Shown here piece after piece: positions 3,620 through 58,441 of a stretch of DNA of 64,000 nucleotides. Origin of the DNA: Octopus sinensis (Eukaryota). The translations under genes were made by a program, and so were the position numbers. The DNA lies in assembly GCF_006345805.1 (NCBI RefSeq), contig NC_043003.1:44082001-44146000 (forward strand), in the 5' to 3' direction. How positions within the stretch are numbered: position 1 is the stretch's first letter; each line of letters begins with the position of its first letter. The notes under the pieces were generated by a model. That model searched no databases, was not told the DNA's origin, and saw only the letters and a list, made by a program, of their open reading frames with translations.

Positions 3620-3795
3620 TTGTATTTCGGAATGGTCATTTTGTCAGTTTAGCCAATAAAAACACACGCACTATATATTTGGTGTTGCTTTGCTTCAGTG
3701 TTATTTATTGGCTAAACTGACAAAATGACCATTCCGAAATACAACAATGTCTGTTTCAACACACGACTTCACATAAAAAAATCTTGCACAACAAA
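3620..3795 (+). mobile_element. Small fold-back element with 3' tail, between (TA)n tracts
   Basis: Perfect 41-bp arms at 3620-3660 and 3704-3744, followed by a ~50-nt unpaired extension. Confidence 0.75.
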
Positions 3796-3835
3796 TATAT
3801 AAATGTAACATATAGATATATATATATAATATATA

Positions 3836-3877
<42 letters not shown>

Positions 3878-3968
3878 TAATATTTACATGCCTGTATAGA
3901 AACACACACACACCACACACACACAAATAGAATAGATATATACATTGTTAGTTAGATAGATAGATATG

Positions 3969-4775
3969 AATTGAATTGAATTTAACTAGTTTCGGCGCCC
4001 GAGCTGTGGCCATGCTGTCGCACCGCCATTTGGCGTTGCTACATAGTTTTTACTTCACTAATTCTTTTTAGAACTTGACATTTGGTACATGACGGTGTTT
4101 GACGCTGCTGCGCTCATTTGCACTTCCTGCTGTGAAGGTTCTTTATCTGGGACTCTTGACAGCAAGAGATTCACTTTACATGCACACTATGTAATTCTTT
4201 CAGCTCTTTCGGGCGGATATCGAAGATCTGTGGTCATTTAAAGCCAGGACTATTGCAATAACATGTTCTATACAGTGGCGTCTTGTTCTAGCATTAGTGC
4301 AACTCTGATTGCCAAGTTTGGGACAAATTTCTTGAAATACTTCCAGATGTATATTACGCATATCTATCCCGCCTACATTCTGATAATCTATCCGGTGAGC
4401 CGCCAGTATCGCATTGCCATCTTAGCAACATGCACATGGAAGGATGCGTCATTACTCGTGTAAATGTTCAGGCCTTGCATTGACTGTGTCTCTGGAATTG
4501 CAGACCCTCCAGGTCCATTGTATTTAATTGATATTGTATTTTGCTTTTCATGCTGATAGCACAATACTGGGAACTTTTAAGCATTAAACTGCATGGCATT
4601 CTTCTTTGTCCACCTGTATATACACGTTGCAGGAGTATGGCGTCTTCAGGTTCTGTATTAGCCGCAAAACCTTTGAATCATCTCCATAACTTGTGATTGT
4701 TGCTCTCTGTCTGGCTGAGGGCACGTCTGAGAGATTCTTTATTGTGCAAGAGTTAACACCCTTTCTCTGCAACAA
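3969..4775 (-). mobile_element. Degenerate CR1-group LINE 3' part
   Basis: Similar to 9870-10960 (gagctgtggccatgctg 3' UTR; ATITSYGDDSK, the YADD-type RT motif). Confidence 0.8.
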
Positions 4776-5068
4776 CCCCTAATTCTCACTATTTCTGTGT
4801 GCGTCAGTCACCTGCTGACACATTAGCATTTCAGAAATATATTGGTATTTTATCGGCATAGTTCCCTATTTTAGAATAAATAAATAGATAAAATTTTTAA
4901 AAGATAAACAGGACAAAAAAAAACACAACTCAGAATTGTTTACTTTAGAAAAATCATATTATGAAAAAATAGACAGAAAATTGGTTATTAACGTAGGCAT
5001 ATGAAAATAGAGATGTGCAGACCAGACATATATATATATATATATATCTGTGTGTGTGTGTGTGTCTG

Positions 5069-5137
<69 letters not shown>

Positions 5138-6568
5138 ATATATATATATATATATATAGTGATATTTAGCACAAGCAACAGAATTGCTCATGGTATGATT
5201 GTTTCGTACGTTGGTAGTTACAAAACTCTTACACCTACATGTCTGTGTATGTATGAATATATATATGTGTGTGTGTGAGAGAGAGAGAGTGTGTGTGTGC
5301 GTGTGAGTGTATGTATGTGTGTATGAAGAGATAAACCCCTTAATATATCTGTACAATAATGTACAGATTGATATGCATGCGAAGTGATACCCAGATGAAA
5401 GAGAAAATAGTTAAACAGATAGAAATATATATATATATATATTGACGCAGATATAAATAGACAGACATAGATGTAGAAACCTGGAAGGAGATGGCGTATT
5501 TTATACTTTGTGTCCTTACGGACATTATGATTCTTGTGGAAATTAATTGCAACGCCTATAGAGCACATTAGGTTGCATCACATATTAGCATTAACACCGT
5601 CTATATCATAAGCAACCGCAACATTTGACACAATCACACTCCAGTCAGGCATATATGCAAGAAGCCATGAATTTTTACTAAATATAATGGTTATTTTCGT
5701 TCGGCAATCTTTCTTTGGGAAACTAAATTAATATTGAAAATGTATCTTATGGAAAATAACAAAGTTCCGTTTGAAAATATGGTTCTATCTAATGGTATTA
5801 TAAATTATTTCATAAATTTGGCTTAGACTTTTACAAAAGGTAAATAAATGTTTTATATATTTATATTAATACTGTATTTATTTTCATTTTATAAAAACAA
5901 CAAAGTCATCGTAAGCCGGCTTGCTCAGATTATACATGTGAGTAGCTTTATGTTGTTCAAACATTATATTTATTCCATAAAATGGTTTCATTTGTGGCCG
6001 GTTAAGTGTGAAGGTAAAATTTTAAAGTTACACGATAGAGGAGAAAATTGCTACTTTCATCTCCGTAAGTGAAGCGAATGTGTCGTAAAATGCTGAACAG
6101 AACAGAACATGAACAGAAGGTATTATGGTCTCTGGGGAAAACTGACGATGCCAAGTTCTATCAGTAAAATTTTGTGACCATATATGTATATTCTGTTTGT
6201 TGTTGACATATATGTGTGTGAGGGCGCATCCGTGCGTCTGCGTGTATATATGCATATGTGTGTCTGTGTGTGTCTGTGTGTGCGCGCTCGTTGTGTACAG
6301 AGATAAGAAAGAGAGAGAAAGAGAGGGAGATGGGGAGAGACAGAAGGCGTGAAAGAGAAAAATACTTTGATAGATATATATAGAAAAATAAAAAGATAGA
6401 AAGATATTGCAAAATTATTTATTTAGTTTGAAAACCTCATATCCATGCGGGTATTTGCTAATATCAGAGTGGCGTACAGTTTGTCTTTGTTTATGAGATT
6501 TTTCCTATCCATTTCCTGAACGTCCAATTATGCATTTAAACAGGATTCGATTATATAGCGCACTGGCA

Positions 6569-6618
<50 letters not shown>

Positions 6619-8558: not shown

Positions 8559-8593
<35 letters not shown>

Positions 8594-9857: not shown

Positions 9858-12360
9858 TTGATTGATTGATTGATTCTAGTTTCAGCTCATGAGCTGTGGC
9901 CATGCTGGGGCACCGCCATTTGGTGTTGCTACTTGGTTTTACTTCACGAAAGCTTTTTAGCAACTGCCATTTGGTGCATGAGAGGGTTCGATGCAGCTGC
10001 CCTCATCTGCACCTCCTGCCGTGAAGTTGGTTCATCTGGGACACCTGACAGGAAGAGATCCAGTTCCATTTTAAAGACACCTGCATCCACCCCATGCAGG
10101 TCTCTCAGGTTCTTCGGGAGGATATTGAAGAGCTGTGGGCCACGGAAGCCCAGGCTATCACAGTATCTTGTCCTACATCTTGATGGCAAATTTGGTGTCC
10201 TAGGCACCACGCAGTGGCACCCAGTTCTGGCACTTGTGTAACTCTCGATGCCAAAGTTTGGGACACGTCCCTCCAGGATCTTCCAGATGTATATTATGGC
10301 ATATCTTTCCCGCCTACGCTCCAAGGAATATAGTTTTAATCTCTTGAGTCTTTCCCAGTAGCTTACATTCTGCATAGAGGCTATCTTCTTCGTGTAGCTA
10401 CGCTGGATCGCCTCGAGCTCTGTGCTCAACTTGACACTGGACGGTGACCATAACTGAGAGCAATAGTCAAAGTGGCTTGAGCTCTGTGATCAACTTGACA
10501 CTGGATGGTGACCATAACTGAGAGCAATAGTCAAAGTGGCTTAGGACAAGTGTCCTCCAGAGGACCATCATGGTTTCTTGTTCTCTTGTTCTAAAGGTTC
10601 TGAGAATCCATCCAGCCAGCCGTCTACATTTTATTGCCAGTTTAGCAACATGTACATGAAAGGTCGCGTCATCACTCATGTGAATACCCAGGTCACGCAC
10701 TGATTGTGCCTTTGGGATTGCAATCCCTCCGGGTCCAGTGTATTCATTGGGTGTTGCATTCAGTTTTGCATGCTGATAGTATAAAGCTTGAAACTTTTCA
10801 GCATTGAACTGCATGCTATTCTTTTCAGCCCATTTGTATATTTCGTCCAGCTTACATTGCAGGTGCTTAGTGTCTTCAGGGTTCTGTATTGCCTGTGAAA
10901 CTTTTGTATCATCTGCATAACTTGTGATCGTGGCTCTCTGCGTGGCTGAGGGCATGTCTGAGAGGGCCATTATGAACAGTAGTGGTCCCAAAACAGTGCC
11001 CTGCGGAACACCGCTCACTATTTGTGTGTTAATGGAAGTGGCCCATTGGCTGTAACCACCTGACTTCTATTCTTCAGAAAGTCATGACGCCATTCTCCCA
11101 ATTTTCCAACTATGCCAAGATCACGCAGTTTGTGACATATCATTCCATGATCGACTTTATCAAAGGCCTTTGCAAAGTCGAGATATATGACTTCCACATT
11201 TGAGTGGTTGAGCAGTTGTTTCAGCACCCAGTCATAGTGTTGTAGGAGCTGAGTTAAACAGCTTCTTCCTGGTCGGAAACCATGTTGGGTGTCAGGCAGC
11301 AAGTCATTTTCTTCAAGGAAGGTGATTAGTTTCCTTCTGACTATTCGTTCCATGACCTTGCTGATGTGTGAGGTGAGAGAGATAGGTCTGTAGTTCTTGG
11401 CCTCTGCTCTGCTACCACCTTTATGAATAGGGCATATTTTACCTTCCTTCAGTTTTTTTGGAAGTTTGCCAGCTGCAAGGAAGCTCTGAAAGAGGATCTG
11501 CAGTGGTCTTGCTAGGACTCTCTTACATACTTTTAGGAGGATTGCCGGGAATCCATCGGGGCCAATAGCTGATTCTGTTTTCATTTCATCTATGGCCTTT
11601 ATTACATCGTCTTCCTTTATATCGATGTAATTTATCGTTGCCGCCTCTGATTTTATATCTGCAGTGGTAAAGAAGTCAGTTGGATTGGTGATTTGGAAAT
11701 GCCCGAGGGGTGGAGTGAAAACACTCTTGAATTGCTCATTCAGTATTTCACTTACCCTCATTGGTTTTCCTGTGAGTGTGCCATCCTTTTCAAGGAGTGG
11801 CCCTATCCTACAGTGCACCGTAGGCATACCTGTAGAAAGCTTTGGAGTTAGATTTTATGTTGTCTATAGCCCAGGCTTCTTTGTCTGCTCTTTCCTTTTC
11901 ATGGGAGAGTTGCAGACATTTTTCAATTTCCAACAGTTTTATTTTCAGGCGGGACTTTTCACTGCTTTCAATCTGTTTGTTTAGGCGATTTGAAATTTTT
12001 GTACGCCGTCTCATTAAGATTTTCCTCTCTCTGGGGATTTTGTTCTTGTGTACAGTGGCCTTTTTCTCTGGGACACATTTGTAGCATATGGCTTGCGTTA
12101 CAGACATGAATTGTTGAAGTTTCACGTCGATGTCTGGCGAGGAGAGACATTTAGGCCAGTTTTGTTTGAGGATCTCTTTCTCAATTTGTTTCCAGTTTGC
12201 CTTATGGTAGTTCAAGCTGGAAAGATTCTGAGGGTTTCTTGTAGGCTGCATGTCCGTGCTCTCTTTTGGCCCGTACATGGTCAGCTCTACCGTGTTGTGA
12301 TCCGAGAGTTGTGTCGGTGTCACTTTCACATTATGGATGAGATCCATATCGTAAATTAAA
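9858..12360 (-). mobile_element. 5'-truncated CR1-group LINE, frameshifted ORF2 (end of APE endonuclease plus RT)
   Basis: Motifs LSDHN, NYRPISLTS, QHGFRPGRSC, YLDFAKAFDKVDH, SGVPQGTVLGPLLF, YADDTK and LYSLERRRER; (ATTG)n tail at 9858-9873. Confidence 0.95.
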
Positions 12361-12759
12361 ATCATCTTATGTTATTTACAATTGATTGCCGAAACTATGC
12401 ATAGTCCAGGAAAGATAGGGTAAACGTTTTCATTTTCATTCTCTTTCAGAATTACAACTATTAGTGGTTTGGAGTTTAACTGCTTTTTCTAATGAGTCAG
12501 ATGTCCTATTATGGTCATCTCTTATGTGTTTAAATATACAGTGTATTTTTCTATAAATATATAGATAGATAGATATATAACGTAGATAGACAGATAGACG
12601 TATATGCTACATATGTATATATATATATATATATATATGCCGTATATTACCAATTACGATATGATCCGTGTTATGTCGCACCCTGCAACTCACATGAATA
12701 GGACTACACTTCTTGTGTTTTTAAATGCCATTGTAAGTGTGAACATTCGTGAATATATA

Positions 12760-13160: not shown

Positions 13161-13164
<4 letters not shown>

Positions 13165-13403
13165 ATAATAAATATTAGGGAATAAATCCAAATTTACAGG
13201 GAAACAAATCAGATTTAGGATTAAATCCAATTTTATAGTAAAATATTATAAAATATTATTAGAGACAAAACCACTATTTTGCAAAACAAACAAGGAAAGA
13301 CTTAATCAATACATAAAATTTTAATTTAAAATTTTATGTATTGATTAAGTCTTTCCTTGTTTGTTTTGCAAAATAGTGGTTTTGTCTCTAATAATATTTT
13401 ATA
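13161..13403 (-). mobile_element. Fold-back Penelope-like terminus, same family as 42404-42835
   Basis: Perfect hairpin 13247-13403 (centre 13325) plus an ~86-nt tail at 13161-13246; (TA)n on both sides. Confidence 0.88.
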
Positions 13404-15028: not shown

Positions 15029-17676
15029 GTTTGACTTTTGCTTTATATTTGTACAAGTTGGCTCCAAGTCTCACCCAGAGACCTCAAGAGACAACAGGTT
15101 GGAAGTTCACGTTGTTGTTATACCTAGTGTGCCATATATTTGGGGTTTTTTTATGGCTGTACTAGTGAATGTCTATTAAATAAATTTTTAAAATAGAGTT
15201 TGTTTTAAACCTTGAGATTACATAGAGAGTATTTTGCGTAGGATATGAGCAGTTTCCATGAGCACTATCTTTTGAATTTCTGCCATTTTGGGGTTTCCTG
15301 GTATCTGAGTTAGGTAGCTATCAGCCCCTTTTGCTATCATTCCCAGGGCACCTATGACAACAGGTATTGTTTTAGGCTTCAGCTTCCACATTTTGCTGAT
15401 TTTTATTTCAAGATCTTTATATTTGCTCAGTTTTTGGTAGGTCTTGACAGATACGTTTATATCGATTGGGACAGTCATATAAATGAGGAGGCATATTCTT
15501 TGTCTGAAGTCAATCAATATGATGTCTGGCCTGTTTGCATCTATCTTTCTGTCAGCGTTAACCTCCAGAGGAGTGAGATGTGGTCATTTTCAAGCACTGG
15601 AGGTGGATTGTGTTCCCACCAGTTTTTTTCATGGGGCAAATCCAGATTTTTCCAAATTACCCAGTGAATATATTGTGCAGCTCTATCATGCCTGTTGAGG
15701 TAGAAGACTGCACTTGGAGACAACATGATCAATGGTTTCCTTTTGTTGTCGACATGCACGACATGTTGGGCTACTGCCTTTCTTTAGTATGTTGGTTTGG
15801 TAGTTTCTTGTTGGTAGGCATTGATCTTGAGCTGCTATGATACACCCTTCTGTTTCTGATTTTAAGCCAGAGGCCATTAGCCATTTATGGATCAGGGCTT
15901 TCTCAATATCTGCATTATTCGCTCTCTTTGGGTATTTGCCATAGAGAGGTTTTTCTTGCCATTTTTTATTCAGAATATCTAAGGCCGCAGTTTTGGCACG
16001 GGTTTTCATGCGATTAGCTTTTTCTGTGCTTGTTTCTTGTATGTCTATCTCTAATTCCGAAATTTGTTGTATTCGGAATTCACTTAGATATTCCTTTGCC
16101 TGTTTTGTTACTGAGTATGATGCTTTCTTGTTTTCATGTTTTGAGACAAGTTTTAACATCCAGTCCTCAAACTTTTTCAGGTAGGTGTCTAGTCCAATTG
16201 TAGCAATCTTCATTGTCGTTGCCAGTTGTAAAAGACCATGGCGTCCATGTTTTCTTGGCAGATAAAGTCGTTTTGTATCTGCTTTAGGGTGGTGCATTCT
16301 ATGCATTGTCAACAGTTTTCGTATTTTTCTGTCAAGCTGACATATTTCAGTAATTGACCAGTTAACGATATTGAAACTGTAAGTCACGACTGGTATGGCT
16401 AATGCATTGATCGCTTCGATCCTGTTTCTTGCATTCAGCTCTGTCCTGAGTATTGCTCTCACTCTTCGATAACATTCTCTCCAGATCCTTTTCTTCATCT
16501 CTGAATGTCTTATTCAGTCCCCTTCAATTACCCCTAGGTACTTGTAGCTCTCCGCTGGGTCTAGTTCTTTTATGACATTCTGCCGGTCAATGTTAACGTT
16601 AGATGTTTCTGTCATTTTTCCTTTGATAAAGGTAGCTTTTGCACATTTATCGAGGCCAAATTGCATTCCGATGTCGTCACTGAATTGTTTGACTATCGCT
16701 AGTAAGCCCTTGAGTTGTTGGTCATTTTTTCCAAAGAGCTTTAAATCATCCATGTAAATGAGATGATTTATATTTTTATCAAACATTTTATACCCGTACT
16801 GCGCGTCATTGAGTAATTTTGAAAGAGGTATTAAGGCTAAACAAAAGAGGAGTGGTGACAGTAAGTCACCCTGGAAAATGCCACATGAAATCTTTACATC
16901 ACCAGCATTTAGGAATTCATTGTCACTGTTCAAAGTTAGTGTGGTTCTCCATGATCTAATACGTACAGTCAAAAGGTTTATCAGAGTAGGTGCTATCTTA
17001 TACATTTCCAGGCATTTCTTAATCCAGCTATGTGGTAGGCTATCAAAAGCCTTTATATAGTCTATCCAGGCTATTGATAAGTTTTTGTGTCGTTTGTGAC
17101 AATCTTCTAAATCATCTTATTGATAGGTAGCTGGTCTTTACAACCGTAGGATCCACGTTTACATCCTTTCTGTTCGTTAGGGAATATGCTGCTGTCTGTT
17201 AAAAAACTATAAGTATATTCCGTGTCAGGAATAGCGTTTATACATAGTTGTTAAGCAAGTTATGGGTCTATAGTTTTTTGGCTCATTTGTTTCTTCACTT
17301 TTTGGAAGCAGGAATGTTTACCCATTAACTAGCGAAGGAGGCATCCGACTAGGGTGTTGCAAAACATCATTGTACAGTTCTGTTAGAAGTTCATGGCTCT
17401 CTGGGAAGGCATTCAAACAGAAGTTAGGAATATTATACTTTCCTGGAGACTTCCATTTGTTTGACCTCCTGAGAGCAGATCATATATCTTCTACCTTGAC
17501 ACCCTCCGACTTTTGCTCTTCTAAGGAGTCCAGTTCTGTAGATGTTCTCTCAATCCAGGGGTCCTTTTCATTGTGTGTTCTTTCTTCAGCCCAAATTTGA
17601 TTCCAAAATCCCTGCACTTCTTCTTTTGATGGTAAAGACCTTACAGTGCTGTTTTTCCTATCTTCCTGTAAAAATT
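15029..17676 (-). mobile_element. 5'-truncated R4/Dong-type non-LTR retrotransposon (RT, CCHC knuckle, restriction-like endonuclease), frameshifted
   Basis: GIFQGDLLSPLLF, YMDDLKL, YKYLGV, CRACRQQKETIDHVVSKC, RHD, KLSKYKDL and PVVIGALG; flanked by (TTA)n on both sides. Confidence 0.92.
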
Positions 17677-24541: not shown

Positions 24542-24578
<37 letters not shown>

Positions 24579-24791
24579 GTGAAATAGAAAGATGAATAAT
24601 CTTGTAGTAGATTAATCAAAAGTTTAACCGATACCTTAGTAGCAAAAATCACAGCAGTAAACAGCACGGTTGGAGGTACAACCATCTGGCGTTGCAACCG
24701 TGCGTTGGTGCGGATAATTGAAATTAAAACATTATTGGTGAATTGAAGAAATGGAGCTGAACGCAGATTGAACAGAAATCGTTTTATTTCA

Positions 24792-24871
24792 TTCTACACG
24801 TGTTTCGAAAGGCACAAATTACCAAAATCCGATTGAATAATGGGACCATATTGTGTCTTTCTCTTCAGGAA
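24792..24871 (-). ncRNA. Type I hammerhead ribozyme motif
   Basis: Reverse complement of 25898-25977. Confidence 0.8.
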
Positions 24872-25897
24872 GAAAAAAGGAAATCCGTTGGAAAAACAAA
24901 AACAGAACAGAGGCGGAGCAAAAACAAAAACAAATCGAACTATGCTCCTAAGAGACCATGGCGAAACTGTTTATCAGTGTATGTTGAGAACCGGTGGCTG
25001 AAGAATTCAACGGGTCAGGCATCGGTCAATCATGTGGGTGAGGGTGTATAGATGTTCTTTGTGACCGAGAATAAAGTTCTGACTATTTAAGGAATATTGG
25101 ATGTTTTATAAGGGGCGAGAAAAAATCTACTTAGAGACGTGTGTGTGTGTATACTGTTCTATATATGTGTGTGTTGGCGTAGGGGTAGAAAACATTTTTT
25201 GTGTACGTGTGTGCGTTTGATCGTTCGGCTGTCAGTGGCTACTGCCGTGATAACCGTTGGGTGGCAGAAAGAAAAAAAATATATATATATTATGTTTTAT
25301 GTGTGTGTGTGTTCATCTAAGCCTGCCTTGTCAAGGAAACCCCCCGCTGTGAAAAAACCAAGCCCCGTTTGTCTTACAGGAGTAATTCCCCTTGCAGTGG
25401 TTAATCGTAGATATCTTAAAGGCTATTTCAGAATTTGTTACCAAGGGCTATGGGTGAACACACACACACATAAAACATAATATATATATTTTTTTTTTCT
25501 TTCTGCCACCCAACGGTTATCACGGCAGTAGCCACTGACAGCCGAACGATCAAACGCACACACGTACACAAAAAATGTTTTCTACCCCTACGCCAACACA
25601 CACATATATAGAACAGTATACACACACACACGTCTCTAAGTAGATTTTTTCTCGCCCCTTATAAAACATCCAATATTCCTTAAATAGTCAGAACTTTATT
25701 CTCGGTCACAAAGAACATCTATACACCCTCACCCACATGATTGACCGATGCCTGACCCGTTGAATTCTTCAGCCACCGTTCTCAACATACACTGATAAAC
25801 AGTTTCGCCATGGTCTCTTAGGAGCATAGTTCGATTTGTTTTTGTTTTTGCTCCGCCTCTGTTCTGTTTTTGTTTTTCCAACGGATTTCCTTTTTTC

Positions 25898-25977
25898 TTC
25901 CTGAAGAGAAAGACACAATATGGTCCCATTATTCAATCGGATTTTGGTAATTTGTGCCTTTCGAAACACGTGTAGAA
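25898..25977 (+). ncRNA. Type I hammerhead ribozyme motif with extended stem II
   Basis: ttc-CTGAAGA-gaaagacacaa...ttgtgcctttc-GAAA-cacgtg-TA-gaa; predicted cleavage GUA^ after 25974. Confidence 0.8.
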
Positions 25978-26045
25978 TGAAATAAAACGATTTCTGTTCA
26001 ATCTGCGTTCAGCTCCATTTCTTCAATTCACCAATAATGTTTTAT

Positions 26046-26600: not shown

Positions 26601-26606
<6 letters not shown>

Positions 26607-26744
26607 AAGATAAAACTCTGAGTTTCAGATGCCGAAGTGGAAATCCACAACAACATTTCTTCGGTTATCTGGCCAGAGATAGTGTTGTGGATTTCCACTG
26701 CGGCATCTGAAACTCAGAGTTTTATCTTGACTATTAAGTAAATG

Positions 26745-26746
<2 letters not shown>
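26601..26746 (+). mobile_element. Small fold-back element in (TA)n; partial second copy at 27939-28072
   Basis: Arms at 26601-26652 and 26683-26734 (one mismatch), then a 12-nt tail. Confidence 0.8.
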
Positions 26747-26818: not shown

Positions 26819-28071
26819 GTCAGTGTGTGTGTAATTATATATATTTACGTATATACGAACACAAATATTTGGGGTCGAATCTATCACTTATTATTAAGGG
26901 AAATGGAAGCGATTTCCTTTTAGTGAGGTTAACATCCCTAAAATTAATTCAAATATATGACTTGAAATATGTTATACTAATAGAGTAGATTTCAAAATCT
27001 CATCAGTAATGTAAATGCATGTTTGTAATTCCTTACGAAATTCAGTGGCAATGATCTTTCATTTTGAGAATCAGCATTAACAAAACCAACTGCATAATGC
27101 ACAGTCCCTTTTAAATACCGTTACCATAAACATACTCAACATAAAACTGAAAACGTGAATCTGTAAAATATCTTGGACAACATCCTGAAGGGTTTACTAC
27201 AACCAATCGACCCCAGTACTTATTTATTTTAAAACTTTTCTTTATTCTAATAGTAACTTTTCTGAAAAGATGAGATGCCAGCATGTGTACAAACCACCGT
27301 CAATTTTCCAGCGGTTGTAAGGGACAAACACGAAAGGGAAGGTCTCACATACATAGAAGTACACACACACACACATACACACATACAAACACACTTACTT
27401 ATAAGCAATGTTTATCGCCACTGTTGCGTAGGGAGCGATGCGAATGCTACTTTTAACCTCAGGAGAACGCCTCCTTCAGATTGTTATTGAATGACATCAG
27501 TACATACATACATACATACATACATACAGACATACATATCATGAACTAAATGTTACTTTCTGAGATGCAGCATGTAATTTTGTCAGTGACCAGGTCACTG
27601 TTTCAGAACGACGGAAACATTCTGGCAACTTAAATGTAAATGTTAAACTGAATCTAACAGTTTTTGTTTGTGTTTAAATGGCTTATAAACAACCAACACG
27701 CTGTAGTTGTATTTGCTATGCATGTATATCTCTGTAACTATATATACATTCCAAACTAAAGTAAACAAAGCGACACTTAGTTTTACAAAGCCAAAATACG
27801 AAATACTGGTTGGTGAAAATCTCAAAATAGAATACTAAGCGTCAACCAAGCATCAATCCTCAAAATTGCACGAGGGCAAGATTTACATCAGAGGATAATT
27901 CAGAAATCTCCATACACAGCAGATATGGGATATGTAGCAACTCTGAGTTTCAGATGCCGAAGTGGAAATCCACAACAACATTTCTTCGGTTATCTGGCCA
28001 GAGATAGTGTTGTGGATTTCCACTGCGGCATCTGAAACTCAGAGTTTTATCTTGACTATTGAGTAAATGTA

Positions 28072-29594: not shown

Positions 29595-29639
29595 GTATAA
29601 CATATGTTTCGACCCATCATTCTGGATCTCATCAGATAC
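29595..29639 (-). ncRNA. Minimal type I hammerhead ribozyme motif inside a TA-flanked element (29385-29806)
   Basis: gtat-CTGATGA-gatcca(gaatga)tgggtc-GAAA-catatg-TT-atac. Confidence 0.82.
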
Positions 29640-35720: not shown

Positions 35721-35830
35721 TACATACATACATTCATACATACAGGTATACATCCACAGACACACAGAGACGCACATATAAAAACACACAAACACGCACA
35801 CACACATATATCTGTTTTATCATGTATCTG

Positions 35831-38279
35831 TTAACCCTCCGCTGGTCCGTATCTGTATTTGTCATGGTTAGTGCGATGGTGAATGGAGAATCCCCACTCA
35901 TGGTTTTAGCTATTTTTAGTACTTTTTATTTCTTTATATGTATTTTTAAGCAATAATATTGTCAAAATCCTATTCTGATATAATGTATTTATTTAATATG
36001 TAAACAAACACAAACTTCTTAAAAGTGAAGGTGAAGCAAAATATAACTATGTTTCGTGGGGAGTGTTCTACTTTCATATTTATTATTTACTCGTTGTTTG
36101 CACTATCCTCCTCGTCATACTGAGCAAAGCAGCCAGTGCTCACGTGCGTAGCATGTTCCAAGTAGATATGCTTATAGTACTTCTGGCAGTAATTTCTTGT
36201 CTTACGATCTTTTGACCTTGGGCACAATGTGCATCGTTGTATGAAATTATCATGATGGCGTTTTGCAGGTAATTCCGTATATGATGAGAAATTTTGACTC
36301 TGATGGCCTCGACAACCAATGTTCACGTGTTTTATTCACAAAGACAGTAGCTGAAATAAACAAAACACTATACCGGAAGCAAGCTTCTTACCGTACAGCC
36401 ATGCCAGTATATTCACCAGGAATAAAGACTTTCTATTTACAAAATTTATGTCGTCACCGAATCCACATATGTATATAATAGTAGATATACACACATTCTT
36501 CCCCACTCGCAGATACAAATCATACAAATATTCACACACGAACACACACACACACCACACACACACACACACACACTTTCCTCAAATATGGGTTTGTCTT
36601 GCGATGATGGATATGGTCCTCCACCAACTTGAATCCCAATTATGTATTCAGTTCTGCCTCTTGAAACAACAAATTGAGGGGGAAGTTCTATTCTGTTCCT
36701 TCTCAGAGTGCCAACCAGCCAACTAATATTGATCTATAATTCCTCCAGAGATCACCAGCAAGTTTTTAACTTATGAACTAATTCTCCAGTATATTTATTC
36801 CAGATGCATTTATATGAATCCACCAATCGTTTTACCTATGCTGTCCCTGAATTATCTACTATAGAAGGGCCTTCTGGTTGTTCCCTCAAATAGACCTCCA
36901 TACATGACAAAGAAAGTTTCAGCATCTGCCAAAATAAATTTTCTTATGCCATATTTTGCTTTGTTAATTGGCATGAAGGCCCTGAATCGACAGTTTCCTC
37001 TAAAGTCAGCCAAAATCCAATCTATTCTCACATACACCGAGACAATATAATTAGCGATACAATTATCAACAAATTTCTCAAATAACTTTCTAAAAGTTGC
37101 AAACTTAACCCCTGACCTTTCAGTTTGGGTGTGGATGTCATCAAACCTCATGGACCTGAGCAGGAAACGGAATCACTGCAAGGGAAAATTTCATTTCCTG
37201 TAAGAACGGTTGACCTAACATCGTCCATATTCATTCGATTTGCTCTAAAAGCTCCTAACAGATAAAGCAGTCCTATTGCAGCTTTCAGCCGCTTTTCATA
37301 ATTATTTTTCTCTTTTTGACTAATCTTTACAATTTCTTTGTTTACTGTCAGTGTAGATATTACTGTGAGCTACTAATTCATTCAGAAGTTCTTCTGTGAG
37401 AAACAAACACCAGCAGTCCTCTGCAGCTTACACATGTTTCGCTGCTCCTTTGTGTACATTGTGTGCTGCAGGTGTAGATCGTGGAAGACTTGGGAGAACC
37501 TCTTCCTAGAGAGTTTTATTGTTTGGCATATAAACTATTTTACTGTGTCCCTGGTAGCCTGTTTTTTATCTGCATCATTAGCTTCATATGTTTCTTCTAA
37601 AGTATTATCTGGTGAGGTCTGCAACATGTCATCTGCTTCAGTTCCTCCCTTTTCATCTGTCATTTCTTCATCATCTGTTTGTTTCTTCCTCAGCTATACT
37701 CTCTCCTTCCCTTTTAGATTCTTCTTCATCTGGTTCTTTATCAAGAAATGATCCTGTTTCGTCTATATCTAATTCTCTCTCAACCATCTCTCTCATTTTT
37801 TCTATTTATCTTTCGTAGTCCATTGTGAATATGAGATGAAAGAACATTTCTCGCTTTTACGACACTTTTATTAATTAAACCCATTTCTCGAATTCCAATT
37901 CATTTTCGCTATAAAATATAGCCAGTAGGAAAAAGAAAGACTACTTTGAACGAATATGTTAGTCATTTGACAATATATAATTTTATACGAGAAATAATCA
38001 TCATTTCAGTTATAGAAATAACTAAGTGAAATACAAAATAATAAAGAAAAAAGGAAGTGAATTGCATGGTGGGGTATACACAACCCTAGAAACAAATAAC
38101 ACGTGAGTACACTTCTGATCACTAATAAATTAACTGAGCGGATGTAGTTCATTATCTCAGAGGAGTGTGCCAAGGAATTACATGGATGGAGAACACTATC
38201 ACGGCTGCCAGATGGAAGATACTCACATATAAACGTCACCTGGGGTATGAGTTACTCCACCGCATCACCGGAGGACTAA
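35831..38279 (-). mobile_element. piggyBac transposon relic
   Basis: Left end TTAA-ccctccgctgg; degenerate right TIR caccggagga-ctaa; transposase motifs RFDD and FRGNCRFRAFMPINKAKYGI; Cys-rich C-terminus RCTLCPRSKDRKTRNYC. Confidence 0.88.
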
Positions 38280-42020: not shown

Positions 42021-42343
42021 AGTGTTCCAACCACTAACCCAGGACACTAACCCAAGTATTTTCCCGTCCCCGTGCATACATACGTCCACACATGCACATA
42101 TATACATATTATCGGATGGATGTTCACTACTCATGGAATCTTCTGCGTTTGACAGGTATTATTTTCCGTTCTGCAGGGTGTCCAACATTCATTCTTTTCA
42201 CTAAGCAATCTTGATGGGTTTCCAGTTTAGTCGCCGACGATCTCACCATGCAACAAGATGTCCTGGGTTACATGTTACCAGTTTCTCCCAACAGAGACTT
42301 GATATCCATGCCCATTATATGTATGTGTGTGTCTATGTCTGTA

Positions 42344-42413
<70 letters not shown>

Positions 42414-42500
42414 TATTAGAGACAAAACCACTATTTTGCAAAACAAACAAGGAAAGACTTAATCAATACATAAAATTTTAATAAATAGTCAAAAAAACCG

Positions 42501-42543
42501 CCACTACAATTGTTTCTTGTCTTGATCGACAATCTTCAGGTGG
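42501..42543 (-). ncRNA. Minimal type I hammerhead ribozyme motif
   Basis: Reverse complement of 42609-42651. Confidence 0.87.
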
Positions 42544-42608
42544 ACTTCCAATAAGTCAGTTTCAAATTATGAAATAACTTCATAATTTGAAACTGACTTA
42601 TTGGAAGT

Positions 42609-42651
42609 CCACCTGAAGATTGTCGATCAAGACAAGAAACAATTGTAGTGG
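42609..42651 (+). ncRNA. Minimal type I hammerhead ribozyme motif
   Basis: ccac-CTGAAGA-ttgtc(gatcaa)gacaa-GAAA-caattg-TA-gtgg; all stems pair; predicted GUA^ after 42647. Confidence 0.88.
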
Positions 42652-42831
42652 CGGTTTTTTTGACTATTTATTAAAATTTTATGTATTGATTAAGTCTTTC
42701 CTTGTTTGTTTTGCAAAATAGTGGTTTTGTCTCTAATAATATTTTATAATATTTTACTATTAAAATTGGATTTAATCCTAAATCTGATTTTTTTCCCTGT
42801 AAATTTGGATTTATTCCCTAATATTTATTAT

Positions 42832-42878
<47 letters not shown>

Positions 42879-42978
42879 ATATTAATTAGAGACAAAACCA
42901 CTATTATGCAAATCAAACAAAGAAAGACTTAATCCAATACATAAAAAATTTTATATAAATTAAATATAATTAAGATAT

Positions 42979-43024
42979 CCTCTACGATCGTTTCTTGTCA
43001 CTTCAATGGACATTCATCAGGTGG
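42979..43024 (-). ncRNA. Minimal type I hammerhead ribozyme motif (one stem I mismatch)
   Basis: ccac-CTGATGA-atgtc(cattgaagt)gacaa-GAAA-cgatcg-TA-gagg. Confidence 0.75.
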
Positions 43025-43382
43025 TTTCAAGACCAGACTCAATATTCAATAAACAGTTATATATTTAACATACATTAATAAGAAATTAATTAATACAATG
43101 AAATACCATCTATAATCTAACTATAATTAAAACCTAAACTACATAACTAAAATAAATTATTATAAAAGTACTCTAAACACTTAAAATTTATAATACCATA
43201 ATAAAACCCATAATAGGGAGCTATTTAATGTTATTAAATAATTATCATTTATCAGGAAACTTATTATATAAGTAAAGTAACCTGTGTCTGCATTTTATTT
43301 TGCGCTCTTCACCTGTATTCAGTAAATTATCATACTTATAAAATAAAATTTCCTTAAACTCATTAGAGCATAAATAACATAA

Positions 43383-44060
43383 ATAATAACGAATATTATT
43401 AAAGAGATTTTAGATATTATCGAACTTTTTATTCGAGATAATCGTAAATATAAAAACATTTTCTCTAGTAATAATTTTGGAGTAGGTTATTCCACCACTA
43501 ATAATGTAGGTAACATTATTTCTTCATTTAACAAATTTAAATTGAATAATTTTTATAAAAATAAATTATTTAATAATACTAATAATAAAGATAAGACATA
43601 TATTAACTGTACTTGTAGAGATAAATCTAAATGTAAATTAAATAATAAATGCGATATTAATGATGTAGTGTATAAATGTATAGTTACATAACATGATAAT
43701 AATTTTAAGAATAATAATTACCCAAAAGCAATTTATATAGGGTCTACTTCCTCTAAAATAAAATTAAGAATCGCACAACATCTGAATTCTTTTAAAAAAT
43801 AAAAACTTAATCAACTCCACTGGACTTAGCAAGTACATTTGGGACTTAAATCACAAAATACTAATTATAATTTATCTTGGGAAATAATTTGTAAAACTAA
43901 ATCATATACTATAGGAGCGAATTTTTGTTATTTATGCTCTAATGAGTTTAAGGAAATTTTATTTTATAAGTATGATAATTTACTGAATACAGGTGAAGAG
44001 CGCAAAATAAAATGCGGACACAGGTTACTTTACTTATATAATAAGTTTCCTGATAAATGA
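43383..44060 (+). pseudogene. C-terminal GIY-YIG endonuclease of a Penelope-like element (Hydra-type), with stops and frameshifts
   Basis: CTCRDKSKCKLNNKC (CxCx5Cx5C), VVYKC, IYIGST..K.RIAQH.NSF, STGLSKYIW, LSWEII, CYLC..E, LLN, KCGH. Confidence 0.85.
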
Positions 44061-46199
44061 TAATTATTTAATAACATTAAATAGCTCCCTATTATGGGTT
44101 TTATTATAGTATTATAAATTTTAAGTGTTTAGAGTACTTTTATAATAATTTATTTTAGTTATGTAGTTTAGGTTTTAATTATACAGACATAGACACACAC
44201 ATACATATAATGGGCATGTATATCAAGTCTCTGTTGGGTGAAACTGGTAACCTGTAACCCAGGACATCTTGTTGCATGGTGAGGTCGTCGGCGACTAAAC
44301 TGGAAACCCATCAAGCTTGCTTAGGGAGGAGAATGAATGTTGGACACCCTGCAGAACGGAAAATGATACCTGTCAAACGCAGAAGAGTCCATGAGTAGTG
44401 AACGTCCATCCGATAATATGTATATATGTGCATGTGTGGACGTATGTATGCACGGGGACGGGAAAATACTTGGGTTAGTGTTTGGAATACTGGGAGTGGG
44501 AAGCCCTTCTGTTGTCACAACTTCTCTCTAGGAGAGGAAGAATCTGAGAGAAAACCTGTGACACTGACACTCTTTAATGATGTAGACTAGTTCTTTTTTT
44601 CAAGTTTATGTTTTCCATGTCCAGGCAGTAGGATTGGATTTGTGCAAATCCTTGCCCACTATCAAAAAAAATTAAATTCTTCATGTACAGGCACTGCTTG
44701 TAAAAATAAACACAATACTTATTGCAAAGATGGCTGGTCGTAGACGTTACCTGTGTGGTACTTTCGATCAGGCGATTGCAATACTCCAACAAGAATTTGT
44801 AGCCATCTTATATGTATGTACGTAGGTATGTATGTATGCATGTATGTATGAAAAGGTTGTGTTAAAAGTTCCACCTAGTGCATGTGAATATATGTGAATA
44901 TATCTAATGTTATATTTTTTCTTTTCGTTGCACATTTTGCTTAATCGGCCATGAAACAAGCAAAACCTAAGTCAAGCTCGTTAGAATTTGAAATCAGAAC
45001 GTTAAAATGGAAGAAATGTCGTAAAGTATTTTGCTCGACATGATAACATTTCAGCCAGTTGACCGCCTTTATCCGTCTACTAAAAGGGATTTCAAATTTT
45101 GGCGCGAGACCAGTAAATTTGAAGCGGGTTGTTAAGTCGATTACATCGACCACATTGTTCAACTGGTGCTTATTTTATCGACCCCAAAATGTTGATTATC
45201 AAGGCTGACCTCAGCAGAATGTCAACTAAGAACGTGAAGAAACGCGAAATGCAACTAAACATTGTCCGATGCGGGAAAGATTCAGTTAGTTCGCTACGTT
45301 TATTTGTCTAGCTAGTGGAAGTAATTTGAGAATTGATGGGAAATTGTGTAATGTAACTCATGATTTGACACGTGATTTTTTTAAAGTTGTGTATTCTTGA
45401 TATAATAAGTTGAGTTTTGTTCAGGTTAAACCTATACCGACGTCATTGAATTATTATATTGATATGTTTCTAACTAGTAATGAGAGCCACGACGCCCCCT
45501 TGCGACTGGGCTGAGTGATTAAAAATCGTACCGGTGGAAGTGACGTTTGTGTGTTAGTTCAAGTTGATTTCGCAGAGAAGTCGGAAGGTGTCGGTTGGTT
45601 AGTTCGACTGGAATATTGATTGTTCGTGAAAAGTTTATTGCATGGTTATGTTGCTATTACGGCTGCGTCATTATCTTGTTTTCTGTTACCACACTGTACC
45701 AGTGTATCTAAACCATCCGCCACAATGTCGTGTTGGAACTACGATACGGGAAACAGAGAATGCAACACTAACTATACCAAAATAACCCATTTCCCGATAT
45801 TAGCTAATCAATGCTTCTATAATGTATGCGAGGTGATGATGTTTTGTGCATATTGTGTTTAAGATGCATTGGGGAAGGGAACATGATATGACGTGTGTGA
45901 GAGAGTAAAGAGAGAGTGATAAGAGTGGAGAGAGGCGGAAATCAGCTCAATGAGCAGAATAGTGAGAACGAGTAGATTGAGTGAGAGAAGAGAGAGAGAG
46001 AGAGAGAGAGTGATTGAGGGAGAGAGAGGGGGAGATAGAGTGAGAGTGAGAGAGAGGGAGAGTGACAAAGAGAGAAGGTAGAAATATCAACAGGGAGGGT
46101 AATGGGGAAGACTGGAGGCGAAAAGGAAGTAGCTTAGAGAATAATCCGCTTTTTTACAATTTCGAATTTAAAAGAGTTTATATTTCTTTGTGCTCGAGG

Positions 46200-49815: not shown

Positions 49816-49887
<72 letters not shown>

Positions 49888-51200: not shown

Positions 51201-51242
<42 letters not shown>

Positions 51243-51968: not shown

Positions 51969-52303
51969 AAATTCAGGATGAATACTTGATAAATGTAAGC
52001 ACCTATATATGCCAGCTAGTAGCAGAGGTGAGAGGACATAAGTATCAAATGAAATAAAAAAAACAGAACACAAAGGATGTCGCGGTACACGTGTTTCAAG
52101 CTTTATAAAACAACTTATTCTTACATCAATGTATAATCGACATAACATATGGTTTAAAGCTCTCTTCAGCAATTGCACGCGGCTGAAGAGAGATTTAAGC
52201 CATCTGTTATGTCGATTCTACATTGATGTAAGAAAAGTTGTTTTATAAAGCTTAAAACACGTGTACCGCGACATCCCTTGTGTTCTGTCTTTTATTTCAT
52301 TTG

Positions 52304-52306
<3 letters not shown>
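51969..52306 (-). mobile_element. Fold-back element with a hammerhead motif in each arm, in (TA)n
   Basis: Arms at 52043-52170 and 52182-52306; ~75-nt tail; 52178-52270 reads cgcgg-CTGAAGA-long stem II-(A)AAA-cacgtg-TA-ccgcg. Confidence 0.82.
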
Positions 52307-52354
<48 letters not shown>

Positions 52355-52570: not shown

Positions 52571-52643
<73 letters not shown>

Positions 52644-52811
52644 AATAATAATAATAATAATTATTATTATTATCATTATTATTATTATTATTATTATTTT
52701 TATTAATTTAACACAACGCATCCATTTGCAAGTATGTATATATATTTATTTATTTACATATATGTATATACATATATGTATATATATATATATAATATAT
52801 ACATATATACT

Positions 52812-52846
<35 letters not shown>

Positions 52847-54064: not shown

Positions 54065-54163
<99 letters not shown>

Positions 54164-55876
54164 GTATATATATACATATATATATACATATATATATATA
54201 CACATATATATGCATACATATATACACTTAAAAAATCGCGCATGCAAACACACACACACACGCACACATATCTATGAATGTATACATTACACATGTATAT
54301 ATACATATATATTAGAATTGAATACACTTCAATCAGCAAATTACGATATTTATACTTCCAACATTGATGCTGACTTGCCAAAATGTTGGAACTTTTGTGA
54401 GATATAAGAGAAATACTTCTAGAAATTTTATGGATATGAAGTATATCAGGGAAACAGGATATATTATAGTCATACGGAATTAGTCATTTCTACTTAATTT
54501 CGCATTTTCGACAATATTTGCTAGTATATAAAGCCATTTGGATGAAGGATGAAGGAGTCTGCTGTAGTACCTTTTCTTCATGGTGGTCCATTAATATCAT
54601 GCTGTACGGTTTCAATCGCTTTCAGAAATTCACAAATACATCGTAGAGTTTTCTGTGATTGCCTATATTTTGAAGACTGTGCAGAATTTGGGTCCCTTTA
54701 AATAGTGTTTGTAAATAGAGGGAAAGCTGCTGCGTATTCCCTAGAAAGCCTTTTTGTTCGATATCTTAGCCTGTCCAGCATAATGCTGAACTTTACATTG
54801 CTTTCTAAGAATATATCTCCGAAGATTCAATATTGCGTAGTTGGGTATTGCTAACGTTTGAAAGCATTACGACCAGCAAGTCCAGATTATGTGCATTTAA
54901 TATATTTGTATTGTCCACTGGTGATATCTCGGTACAAAGAAAGGTATCTGGACAGGGAAGAATACCGGGGAAATCATAAAGGATAAATCTCAGAATACAC
55001 GAAGAGACAGAAACAGATATACATGTTTGTGTATGAGCCTTCGTGCGTGCGTTTGTGCAAATGCAGACTAAGTGTGTGCGCAAGCGAGCTTATATCTGTG
55101 TGTATATGTATGTGTTTGTGTGTTTGTGTGTTCGTGTCTCTGTGTATGTCTATCTGCGTCTGTCTGTTTATGTAATGTGTTAGTTATTCATAGGTCCGAA
55201 ATTAGCATGCCCCAAAATTCTTTTACTTTATATTTTTTATACAGTCATTGGTCATGGCTGGTAAGAAACTAACCATTGATTCCATGTCTATCATTGCTCT
55301 AATCAATGTAGGAGGCCCAGGAGACGAGCGGACTGTATGTAGATAATTTCTTCATCAATGGAGGTAAGAATACAATGTTTGCCAGCATAGGATTGGTAAA
55401 ATTCATGAGACATAATTGTTCGAAGTTAAAAGACATACCGGGTGAAACGGAGCTACCTCCATGGAAATTTCAGTTGTGTCCAAATGTGGTCAGTTTATGG
55501 ACATTTTCAGTAGTCCCTAAGCGGAAAATGTCTTGCCTCGTTTTTATCATAAAATGTCCCAAAGTGTGTTCTCACCTGTCTCCTATTGCCTATTCTGTCG
55601 TCGCCTATAGTGCTAAGAACAATATTAGACGTGAAAACAATCTAATCGTCCAAAACCAACGACTACATAAATATATATATATATATATACTAAGCAATAA
55701 GGGTTTAGCAACGAGTTGCCTTACCACATACCGAATTTAGAAATAGCAGTCAAAGGGTTATAGCTATTTCTTCTACTAAAAAGGGAGATCTCAGTAAAAA
55801 CAGCATTTGGAAGGCAGACACAAACAGGTAAGAGAGAATGAATTGACTGCAATCTATCATACATTTTTTTTAGTTA

Positions 55877-55983
55877 TCCACGGACGTACGTTTCGAAATC
55901 AAGTTTTAAGGAAAGCATAAGAATTAAATATTAAATATTAAATAATTCTATCTTACCGAAACTTCTTTTCTCTTCAGCGTAGA
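55877..55983 (-). ncRNA. Type I hammerhead motif (inverted unit)
   Basis: Reverse complement of the unit motif, intact core. Confidence 0.8.
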
Positions 55984-56167
55984 ATACTATAATCATAAAT
56001 GATTATATATTGAATTTTGGTGGGAAGGGGCTGTTGACACAATCGTTTCATTCACAAATTGAATTCGGTGATACCAGTTGCGGATTCTAGCTCGCTCTGA
56101 TACTGAGTTGAGTTGGTGCCTTCTGGTATCTCAAAATTCAATATATAATCATTTATGATTATAGTAT

Positions 56168-56272
56168 TCTACGCTGCAGAGAAAAAAGTTTCGGTAAGAT
56201 AGAATTATTTAATATTAATATTTAATTTTTATGCTTTCCTTAAAACTTGATTTCGAAACGTACGTCCGTGGA
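56168..56272 (+). ncRNA. Type I hammerhead motif, unit 1 (core variant CTGCAGA)
   Basis: As unit 2 but with an A6C change in the core. Confidence 0.65.
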
Positions 56273-56764
56273 TAACTAAAAAAATGTATGATAGATTGCA
56301 GTCAATTCATTCTCTCTTACCTGTTTGTGTCTGCCTTCCAAATGCTGTTTTTACTGAGATCTCCCTTTTTAGTAGAAGAAATAGCTATAACCCTTTGACT
56401 GCTATTTCTAAATTCGGTATGTGGTAAGGCAACTCGTTGCTAACCCTTATTGCTTAGTATTACTTAAATTTTCCTCGAATGAGGCTTTTACATGCCGAAG
56501 ACTACTTGGTGTAATTGATAATTTTTCCAAATTAATTAATTTCACCCTTCATTATTACGGATAACCATATTTTATCTCAGTAGATGACCACAGCATCTTG
56601 TTTTGGCTACACGCGGGTGGGAAGGGGCTGTTGACACAATCGTTTCATTCACAAATTGAATTCGGTGATACCAGTTGCGGATTCTAGCTCGCTCTGATAC
56701 TGAGTTGAGTTGGTGCCTTCTGGTATCTCAAAATTCAATATATAATCATTTATGATTATAGTAT

Positions 56765-56875
56765 TCTACGCTGAAGAGAAAAGAAGTTTCGGTAAGATAG
56801 AATTATTTATTTAATATTTAATATTTAATTCTTATGCTTTCCTTAAAACTTGATTTCGAAACGTACGTCCGTGGA
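56765..56875 (+). ncRNA. Type I hammerhead motif, unit 2
   Basis: tctacg-CTGAAGA-gaaa..~80-nt stem II..tttc-GAAA-cgtacg-TC-cgtgga; predicted GUC^ after 56869. Confidence 0.83.
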
Positions 56876-57366
56876 TAACTAAAAAAATGTATGATAGATT
56901 GCAGTCAATTCATTCTCTCTTACCTGTTTGTGTCTGCCTTCCAAATGCCGTTTTTACTGAGATCTCCCTTTTTAGTAGAAGAAATAGCTATAACCCTTTG
57001 ACTGCTATTTCTAAATTCGGTATGTGGTAAGGCAACTCGTTGCTAAACCCTTATGCTTAGTATTACTTAATTTTCCTCGAATGAGGCTTTTACATGCCGA
57101 AGACTACTTGGTGTAATTGATAATTTTTCCAAATTAATTAATTTCACCCTTCATTATTACGGATAACCATATTTTATCTCAGTAGATGACCACAGCATCT
57201 TGTTTTGGCTACACGCGGGTGGGAAGGGGCTGTTGAGACAATCGTTTCATTCACAAATTGAATTCGGTGATACCAGTTGCGGATTCTAGCTCGCTCTGAT
57301 ACTGAGTTGAGTTGGTGCCTTCTGGTATCTCAAAATTCAATATATAATCATTTATGATTATAGTAT

Positions 57367-57479
57367 TCTACGCTGAAGAGAAAAGAAGTTTCGGTAAGAT
57401 AGAATTATTTATTATTTAATATTTAATATTAATTCTTATGCTTTCCTTAAAACTTGATTTCGAAACGTACGTCCGTGGA
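57367..57479 (+). ncRNA. Type I hammerhead motif, unit 3
   Basis: Same motif; predicted cleavage after 57473. Confidence 0.83.
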
Positions 57480-57968
57480 TAACTAAAAAAATGTATGATA
57501 GATTGCAGTCAATTCATTCTCTCTTACCTGTTTGTGTCTGCCTTCCAATGCTGTTTTTACTGAGATCTCCCTTTTTAGTAGAAGAAATAGCTATAACCCT
57601 TTGACTGCTATTTCTAATTCGGTATGTGGTAAGGCAACTCGTTACTAAACCCTTATTGCTTAGTATTACTTAAATTTTCCTCGAATGAGGCTTTTACATG
57701 CCGAAGACTACTTGGTGTAATTGATAATTTTTCCAAATTAATTAATTTCACCCTTCATTATACGGATAACCATATTTTATCTCAGTAGATGACCACAGCA
57801 TCTTGTTTTGGCTACACGCGGGTGGGAAGGGGCTGTTGACACAATCGTTTCATTCACAAATTGAATTCGGTGATACCAGTTGCGGATTCTAGCTCGCTCT
57901 GATACTGAGTTGAGTTGGTGCCTTCTGGTATCTCAAAATTCAATATATAATCATTTATGATTATAGAT

Positions 57969-58075
57969 TCTACGCTGAAGAGAAAAGAAGTTTCGGTAAG
58001 ATAGAATTATATAATATTTAAATTTTAATTCTCATGCTTTCCTTAAAACTTGATTTCGAAACGTACGTCCGTGGA
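57969..58075 (+). ncRNA. Type I hammerhead motif, unit 4
   Basis: Same motif; predicted cleavage after 58069. Confidence 0.83.
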
Positions 58076-58441
58076 TAACTAAAAAAATGTATGATAGATT
58101 GCAGTCAATTCATTCTCTCTTACCTGTTTGTGTCTGCCTTCCAAATGCTGTTTTTACTGAGATCTCCCTTTTTAGTAGAAGAAATAGCTATAACCCTTTG
58201 ACTGCTATTTCTAAATTCGGTATGTGGTAAGGCAACTCGTTGCTAAACCCTTATTGCTTAGTATTACTTAAATTTTCCTCGAATGAGGCTTTTACATGCC
58301 GAAGACTACTTGGTGTAATTGATAATTTTTTCCAAAAATTAATTTCCCTTCATTATTACGGATATATATATATATATTATATATATATATATATATATGT
58401 GTGTGTGGTGGTGTGTGTGTGTGTGTGTGTCTGTGTGTGAA

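What the first reader, a model, noticed from the sequence alone, without database searches (positions are those of the whole stretch)
3620..58364. Shared integration footprint: (TA)n, inverted partial copy, main copy, fixed unpaired 3' tail, (TA)n
Seen at 3620-3795, 13161-13403, 24576-26044, 26601-26746, 42404-42835, 51969-52306 and 55687-58364. The inverted copy stops short of the element end, leaving a tail of about 50, 86, 150, 12, 86, 75 and 100 nt respectively. The two independent insertions of one family (13161 and 42404) have the same outer boundary (tataaaatattattagagac) and the same tail but different fold-back points. Known: Penelope-like elements show inverted 5' pLTRs and a 3' extension. 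Inference: there are two fixed priming sites per RNA, one for each nicked strand of the TA target, with variable truncation where the two cDNAs meet.
Basis: partly seen in the sequence, partly recalled or inferred. Interest (0 to 1): 0.7.

Follow-up and report, generated by a model that had tools for sequence, protein, structure and literature searches.

The report
Penelope retrotransposon two-start insertion scars
These hairpins in TA repeats are head-to-head stumps of a known class of jumping genes (Penelope-like elements), and because almost every two-armed copy pairs one short end with one long end, each insertion is likely made by two copying starts on a single RNA.

Summary
Real, and known in kind. 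All seven hairpins exist. They belong to six repeat families. Four (A, B, E, F) are joined elsewhere in the genome to Penelope-like (PLE) endonuclease frames, A, B and F also to reverse transcriptase; A and F are Hydra-clade. C is a tandem hammerhead retrozyme; D carries a hammerhead. Each family has two fixed 3' ends. Two-armed insertions pair one short with one long end: family A 56 of 57 (1 unresolved); B-F 34 of 35 resolved. Both arms share allele states (20 of 20 at the best site), and in 8 of 47 the short arm reaches far beyond the long arm. This fits two primings on one RNA better than simple snap-back. Corrections: fold-back points are not random, they cluster at the spliced RNA's 5' end and just 3' of the hammerhead; the tail can sit on either arm; the 12-nt tail at 26601 is an eroded end (family tail about 70 nt). 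The footprint and two internal starts are published (PMC8557442, PMC11167929), and this scan reported the same on other DNA. Empty sites and raw reads were not available.

The parts
3620..3805 (+). Family E PLE stump: inverted short-end arm 3620-3665, sense arm 3698-3744, tail to about 3805
   Evidence: family has 1821 matches at up to 1 mismatch and is joined to a C-terminal GIY-YIG-type frame with two Cys between the motifs (L324, L336)
13161..13403 (-). Family A copy 1: tail 13161-13246, arms 13247-13324 and 13326-13403; folds back in the hot spot 3' of the hammerhead
24576..26044 (-). Family B PLE stump: tail 24576-24724, arms 24725-25323 and 25446-26044, predicted hammerheads at 24868-24795 (-) and 25901-25974 (+)
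   Evidence: family joined to RT and endonuclease frames
26601..26746 (+). Family F (Hydra-type) stump with eroded ends; the 12-nt overhang is not the family tail
27939..28071 (+). Duplicate of the 26601 hairpin (99% over 133 nt) with the same right flank
42404..42835 (+). Family A copy 2: inverted arm 42404-42573; sense arm from the inferred transcription start 42577; splice junction 42599/42600; predicted hammerhead core 42613-42647; short site about 42748-42752; tail to 42831-42835
42879..44183 (.). Older family-A relative, head-to-head: minus arm 43384-42879 with hammerhead 43020-42983 ending at the short site; plus arm 43385-44183 with a broken endonuclease frame 43383-44060.
51969..52306 (-). 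Family D stump: tail 51969-52042, arms 52043-52170 and 52182-52306, predicted hammerhead with long stem II at 52169-52086
55687..58364 (+). Family C retrozyme-like array: inverted arm 55687-56019, about 3.9 tandem 600-nt units each with a predicted hammerhead, tail 58265-58364

Best explanation
The seven loci are head-to-head stumps of Penelope-like retroelements and one retrozyme, and each two-armed insertion is likely made when both nicked strands of a (TA)n target prime reverse transcription on one RNA, one at a fixed 'long' site and the other at a fixed 'short' site about 60-150 nt upstream. Shown: the anatomy, the two fixed ends, the short+long pairing, shared alleles between arms, spliced and unspliced copies, linkage to RT and endonuclease frames. 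Published in vitro for another PLE: nicking and extension of both strands and internal starts. Inferred: the long-site polymerase either stalls where the short-site complex sits (abutting, non-overlapping arms) or displaces the other cDNA and runs on (overlapping arms); both cDNAs end at the RNA 5' end or at a barrier 3' of the hammerhead and are joined end to end through microhomology or short fillers. The tail is the RNA stretch between the two sites.
For: Pairing: A 56 short+long of 57 (sampled on one end, so each sub-sample can miss only one symmetric class); B 7 of 8, C 6 of 6 fully seen, E 10 of 10, F 7 of 7, D 4 of 4, these five sampled on a motif shared by both ends. One template: polymorphic sites agree between arms 20 of 20, 14 of 14, 12 of 12, 34 of 34, while arms differ privately at 49 of 9905 positions. 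Not copied from the long cDNA: in 8 of 47 the short arm reaches more than 50 nt further 5' than the long arm, and in 7 of these 8 the long arm stops at positions 140-205 around the short site (p about 0.002, window chosen after seeing the data); the same abutting form in B (L258, L264, L267), C (L066), D (L278). Sense RNA template: copies lacking a GT-AG intron, 38 spliced against 16 unspliced donor contexts among fetched loci, with overlaps not removed. Staggered nicks: interrupted direct repeats in 11 of 55 informative flank pairs against 4.6 in shuffles. Only 83 matches read through the long site into the ORF against 2869 at the long end. PMC11167929 (parts 1-2 of 4 read): both strands cut and extended, internal starts bracket the tail, dimer predicted.
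Against: PMC11167929 saw no difference in start site between the two strands in vitro, so the strict pairing is not explained by it. 28 of 47 family-A hairpins are symmetric within 12 nt, which snap-back explains equally well. Shared alleles could also come from two RNAs of one source locus or from gene conversion; non-nested arms could come from later asymmetric deletion of unstable palindromes. One short+short case (L255, family B). The direct-repeat signal is weak (44 of 55 show none). No empty site and no raw reads could be examined.
Confidence: 0.62

Rival explanations
1. Snap-back: one cDNA from the long site folds back on itself, is copied to the short site, and is cut or joined there (self-priming as in PMC3846280, endonuclease-mediated resolution as in PMC8557442).
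For: Explains shared alleles and the 28 of 47 near-symmetric hairpins; many apexes sit at short palindromes.
Against: Requires the inverted arm to lie inside the long arm; 8 of 47 in family A and further cases in B, C and D do not. One-armed short-ended copies show that the short site works as a start by itself. An antisense template fits poorly with precisely spliced copies. It may still make a part of the symmetric copies.
Confidence: 0.2
2. A protein dimer holds two RNA molecules, usually from the same source locus; each subunit uses a different site.
For: Overlapping arms need no strand displacement; a dimer is predicted in PMC11167929; mixed-length arms exist.
Against: No discordant arm pair at four polymorphic sites; long arms pile up at the short site; 32 of the 34 pairs whose arms both end in the two hot spots end in the same one (p 3e-7).
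Confidence: 0.13
3. The hairpins are fold-back chimeras of long reads or later palindromic rearrangements, not insertion products.
For: Young arms are 99-100% identical; no listed contig of the public runs bridges the 42576 apex with 31 letters on each side.
Against: Fixed family-specific outer boundary at 948 places; a tail on one side only; arms 5-7% diverged at 26601 and 51969; captured spacers between arms; short-end/TA junctions in contigs of three studies and one fold-back joint at the RNA 5' end in another study.
Confidence: 0.03

Closest known systems
Insertion unit of endonuclease-positive Penelope-like elements (Craig et al. 2021, PMC8557442, passages and the Hydra section read; Arkhipova et al. 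2013, PMC3846280, passages read)
   Same: Adjacent inverted 5'-truncated copy, tail at one end, partial tandems, hammerhead and TCACT initiator-like motif in the pLTR, (TA)n targets.
   Different: Tails here are about 60-150 nt against 30-40 nt; those papers propose self-priming or endonuclease resolution, and the passages read give no count of short+long pairing.
PAc, Poseidon element of Anolis carolinensis (Frangieh et al. 2024, PMC11167929, parts 1-2 of 4 read)
   Same: Internal starts that bracket the tail; both strands nicked and extended; AT-rich target; hammerhead upstream.
   Different: PAc starts lie 111-118 nt inside the ORF; family A's long site lies about 55 nt upstream of the ATG. 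PAc shows no strand bias for start site in vitro; here the two ends are almost always different.
Hydra clade of PLEs (PMC8557442 section 11)
   Same: Families A and F: C-terminal endonuclease without CCHH and a CxCx5C linker; A also has RxxWK, DKT, late CxxC and CxH; TA targets.
   Different: Family A has a long pLTR with an intron of about 1.15-1.4 kb and an Asn-rich insert, so a whole copy spans about 7 kb; no tree was built.
Metazoan non-LTR retrozymes (PMC7229834 passages; bioRxiv 10.64898/2026.07.22.740005 part 1 of 5)
   Same: Family C: tandem non-coding units each with a type I hammerhead.
   Different: 600-nt unit, inserted head-to-head with the same two fixed ends as the autonomous PLEs.
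LINE-1 twin priming (recalled, not read)
   Same: Two nicked strands prime on one RNA and give an inversion.
   Different: In LINE-1 the second site is variable and the pieces barely overlap; here it is fixed and the arms mostly overlap.

Membership tests
EN+ Penelope-like elements | Single ORF with RT and GIY-YIG endonuclease | tested here: met
   RT motifs (YRDD/YKDD) and C-terminal VVY...YIG/YVG frames in A (L343, L345), F (L348), B (L349); endonuclease frame in E. Read by motif; Pfam copy gave no hit. Not shown for D.
EN+ Penelope-like elements | pLTR-ORF-pLTR partial tandem | tested here: met
   L345, L346, L347
EN+ Penelope-like elements | Inverted 5'-truncated copy and one-sided tail | tested here: met
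   window locus 26601 is an eroded exception
EN+ Penelope-like elements | Type I hammerhead with palindromic helix III in the pLTR | tested here: met
   Pattern match in A, B, C, D; none seen for E and F; Rfam gave no match at gathering score; cleavage untested
EN+ Penelope-like elements | Spliceosomal intron near the transcription start, retained in some copies | tested here: met
   Family A donor and acceptor, spliced and unspliced copies, a 4-nt alternative donor; compare PMC2377424 passages
EN+ Penelope-like elements | Target-site duplication | tested here: inconclusive
   11 of 55 against 4.6 expected; clear 9-13 nt repeats at L275 and L281; hidden in pure TA
Hydra clade | RWK, DKT, CxCx5C linker, no CCHH, TA target | tested here: met
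   Family A all motifs; F linker and no CCHH; B no CCHH; E has two Cys between the motifs and is not Hydra
Hydra clade | Placement in an RT tree | not tested
   no reference set at hand
Non-LTR retrozyme (family C) | Tandem non-coding units each with a type I hammerhead | tested here: met
Non-LTR retrozyme (family C) | Self-cleavage and circular RNA | not testable with these tools
   needs RNA data or assay

The most novel reading that the evidence does not exclude
PLEs integrate by obligate, site-programmed twin priming: a dimer on one RNA assigns one fixed start to each nicked strand, so the class-wide inverted copy and tail are the direct product of first-strand synthesis at both ends, and the hairpin apex reports the RNA 5' end or a hammerhead-side barrier. 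Any RNA with the two-site module (short spliced 5' ends, retrozymes, host exons spliced onto the pLTR) would be written as a palindrome into TA repeats.
Probability: 0.45. Interest if true: 0.6.

Novelty: new member of a known kind. Interest (0 to 1): 0.38.

Why it matters
How PLEs make their inverted copy and tail is stated as open in PMC8557442 and PMC11167929. Thousands of young copies in six families give counts that separate the models and name a direct two-barcode experiment. The footprint itself is ordinary for the class; it also matters for annotation, because these stumps look like MITEs or assembly chimeras.

Tried and rejected
Cap-derived extra G at the RNA 5' end: suggested by 13 of 20 junctions but most of those G's can come from the other arm; only 2 of 22 one-armed copies next to TA have it. 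Rejected. Hammerhead cut as the second fold-back hot spot: of 43 places in the first 100 of 127 lines, 3 start exactly at the predicted cut, 1 a base later and most others in the T-run 7-13 nt downstream; cause unresolved, and no control window was searched. DNA searches for two families returned nothing because their words are too common; patterns were used instead. The family-A tally (34 long+long) came from a probe that also matched the short end; it was redone and agrees. The 12 long+long and 1 short+short rows come from loci chosen for read-through or cut at a locus edge; 4 long+long rows for C are arrays cut at the locus edge. Folding of the family-A RNA is no better than shuffles (z 0.21). 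Pfam and Rfam gave no hit for the PLE frames or hammerheads. No RNA holder listed; only contigs could be laid, and no listed piece bridges the 42576 apex. Empty orthologous sites: no second assembly was available. Paper searches: 'penelope + twin priming + inverted + giy-yig' 0 papers; some searches gave one paper each; supplements were not read and may hold such counts.

Full report
Observation. The window is AT-rich with dense (TA)n runs and lies in a 2.72-Gb animal genome; the nearest named relatives of the element protein are from Argonauta and Octopus. All seven loci are inverted arm pairs between TA runs with a one-sided overhang of 51, 86, 149, 12, 87, 74 and 100 nt. A pattern scan finds type I hammerhead motifs with a palindromic helix III in four of the loci (24576, 42404, 51969, 55687), always reading towards the overhang, so the tail is at the 3' end of the sense RNA. 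Rfam finds nothing at gathering score.

Families. A (13161, 42404): 948 exact short-end+TA matches, 2869 long-end matches (all subfamilies sharing that end) and 83 read-through matches, controls 0. Read-through copies enter an ORF about 55 nt after the long site. Whole copies show pLTR, RT, C-terminal endonuclease, pLTR (L345-L347) with the Hydra-clade motifs listed in PMC8557442 section 11. The 255-nt unit at 42577-42831 is the spliced 5' end of the RNA: a 23-nt exon, an intron of about 1.15-1.4 kb with GT-AG ends, then hammerhead, short site and long site. B has 1882 matches, ends at two sites 149 nt apart and is joined to RT and endonuclease frames. E has 1821 matches, a tail of about 58 nt and an endonuclease with two Cys between the motifs. 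F has 2471 matches, a tail of about 70 nt and a Hydra-type frame; the window copy stops short of both sites, so its 12 nt are an eroded end. D has a 74-nt tail (12 matches to a tight pattern). C is a 600-nt tandem hammerhead unit with two fixed ends about 100 nt apart.

Pairing rule. Two-armed family-A insertions are short+long in 56 of 57, one cut at a locus edge; an alignment-based count on the position-ordered loci gives 47 of 50, the other three being exon-1 pieces or partial matches, not ends. For B, C, D, E and F, sampled on a motif common to both ends, 34 of 35 resolved insertions are short+long and one is short+short. The tail may be on the short inverted arm while the whole element ends at the short site (L346). 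One-armed copies with either end are common. Both flanks are TA in 115 of 126 two-armed insertions.

Template. At polymorphic sites the two arms always agree (12 of 12, 14 of 14, 20 of 20, 34 of 34) although arms carry private differences (49 of 9905). This points to one template molecule or one source locus. In 8 of 47 insertions the short arm reaches more than 50 nt further 5' than the long arm, and the long arm stops near the short site in 7 of these 8; three more rows of that list were dropped as alignment effects of a palindrome at the 5' end. Abutting arms also occur in B, C and D. Copying back along the long cDNA cannot give these, unless they are later deletions.

Fold-back points. Contrary to 'variable truncation', they are bimodal in A: both arms end in positions 1-30 in 20 of 47 and both in 72-110 in 12 of 47, with 2 mixed (Fisher p 3e-7). 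Position 1 follows a TCACT initiator-like motif, as described for a rotifer pLTR (PMC3846280), and 22 one-armed spliced copies begin exactly there, so it is inferred to be the transcription start. The second hot spot is the T-run just 3' of the hammerhead, not the predicted cut itself.

Artefact check. Only contigs of public runs could be laid. Short-end/TA junctions appear in three studies and one contig of another study folds back at position 1; no listed piece bridges the window apex. Fixed boundaries, one-sided tails and diverged arms argue against read chimeras. Interrupted direct repeats on both flanks (11 of 55 against 4.6) fit staggered nicks but are weak evidence.

Comparison. The inverted truncated copy, one-sided tail and TA preference are described for PLEs (PMC8557442; PMC3846280); hammerheads with palindromic helix III and the 5' intron too (PMC4209133; PMC2377424; passages). 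PMC11167929 shows cleavage and extension of both strands and internal starts that bracket the tail, without a strand difference. I found no paper that names twin priming for PLEs, supplements unread. Earlier notes of this scan report the same footprint and a similar reading on other DNA of this genome and on another genome; they are not independent support.

Verdict. A real, family-wide and published PLE footprint. Interest 0.38.

Noticed in passing
L002:1164-1500: A family-A spliced unit is preceded by an apparent host coding exon (ABCA-transporter-like by recall; no Pfam hit) joined at an AG just upstream of the inferred start: possible host mRNA spliced onto the element and retrotransposed.
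   Followed up: partly
window 42044-42344 and 44181-44481: A 301-nt inverted repeat (96%) encloses both family-A insertions; inverted flank duplications also at 3376-3453/3530-3607 and in L057.
   Followed up: no
L016, L023, L041, L112, L118: Non-element spacers of 145-640 nt between the two arms, perhaps captured during joining.
   Followed up: no
window 29599-29635 (-) and 29748 (+): A further hammerhead motif with an opposed partial one before a TA run: probably an eighth, decayed head-to-head stump.
   Followed up: partly
L217, L219-L221, L225-L231: Tandem 240-300 nt units that run from inside the pLTR into the first codons of the ORF, bounded by the usual two ends: possible retrozyme-like arrays arising from an autonomous PLE.
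   Followed up: no
window 42600 (runs X6 and X13): Contigs join unrelated sequence exactly at the element's splice acceptor, which suggests host exons splice into it; RNA status of X13 is a guess.
   Followed up: no
L011/L012, L093-L095, L161, L167: Whole hairpin insertions duplicated in tandem with TA between them.
   Followed up: no
window 9876-12371, 15218-17116 and 36855-37172: Broken LINE-type reverse transcriptase frames and a piggyBac-like transposase piece.
   Followed up: no
window 33854-35737: Tandem duplication of about 920-965 nt at 99% identity.
   Followed up: no
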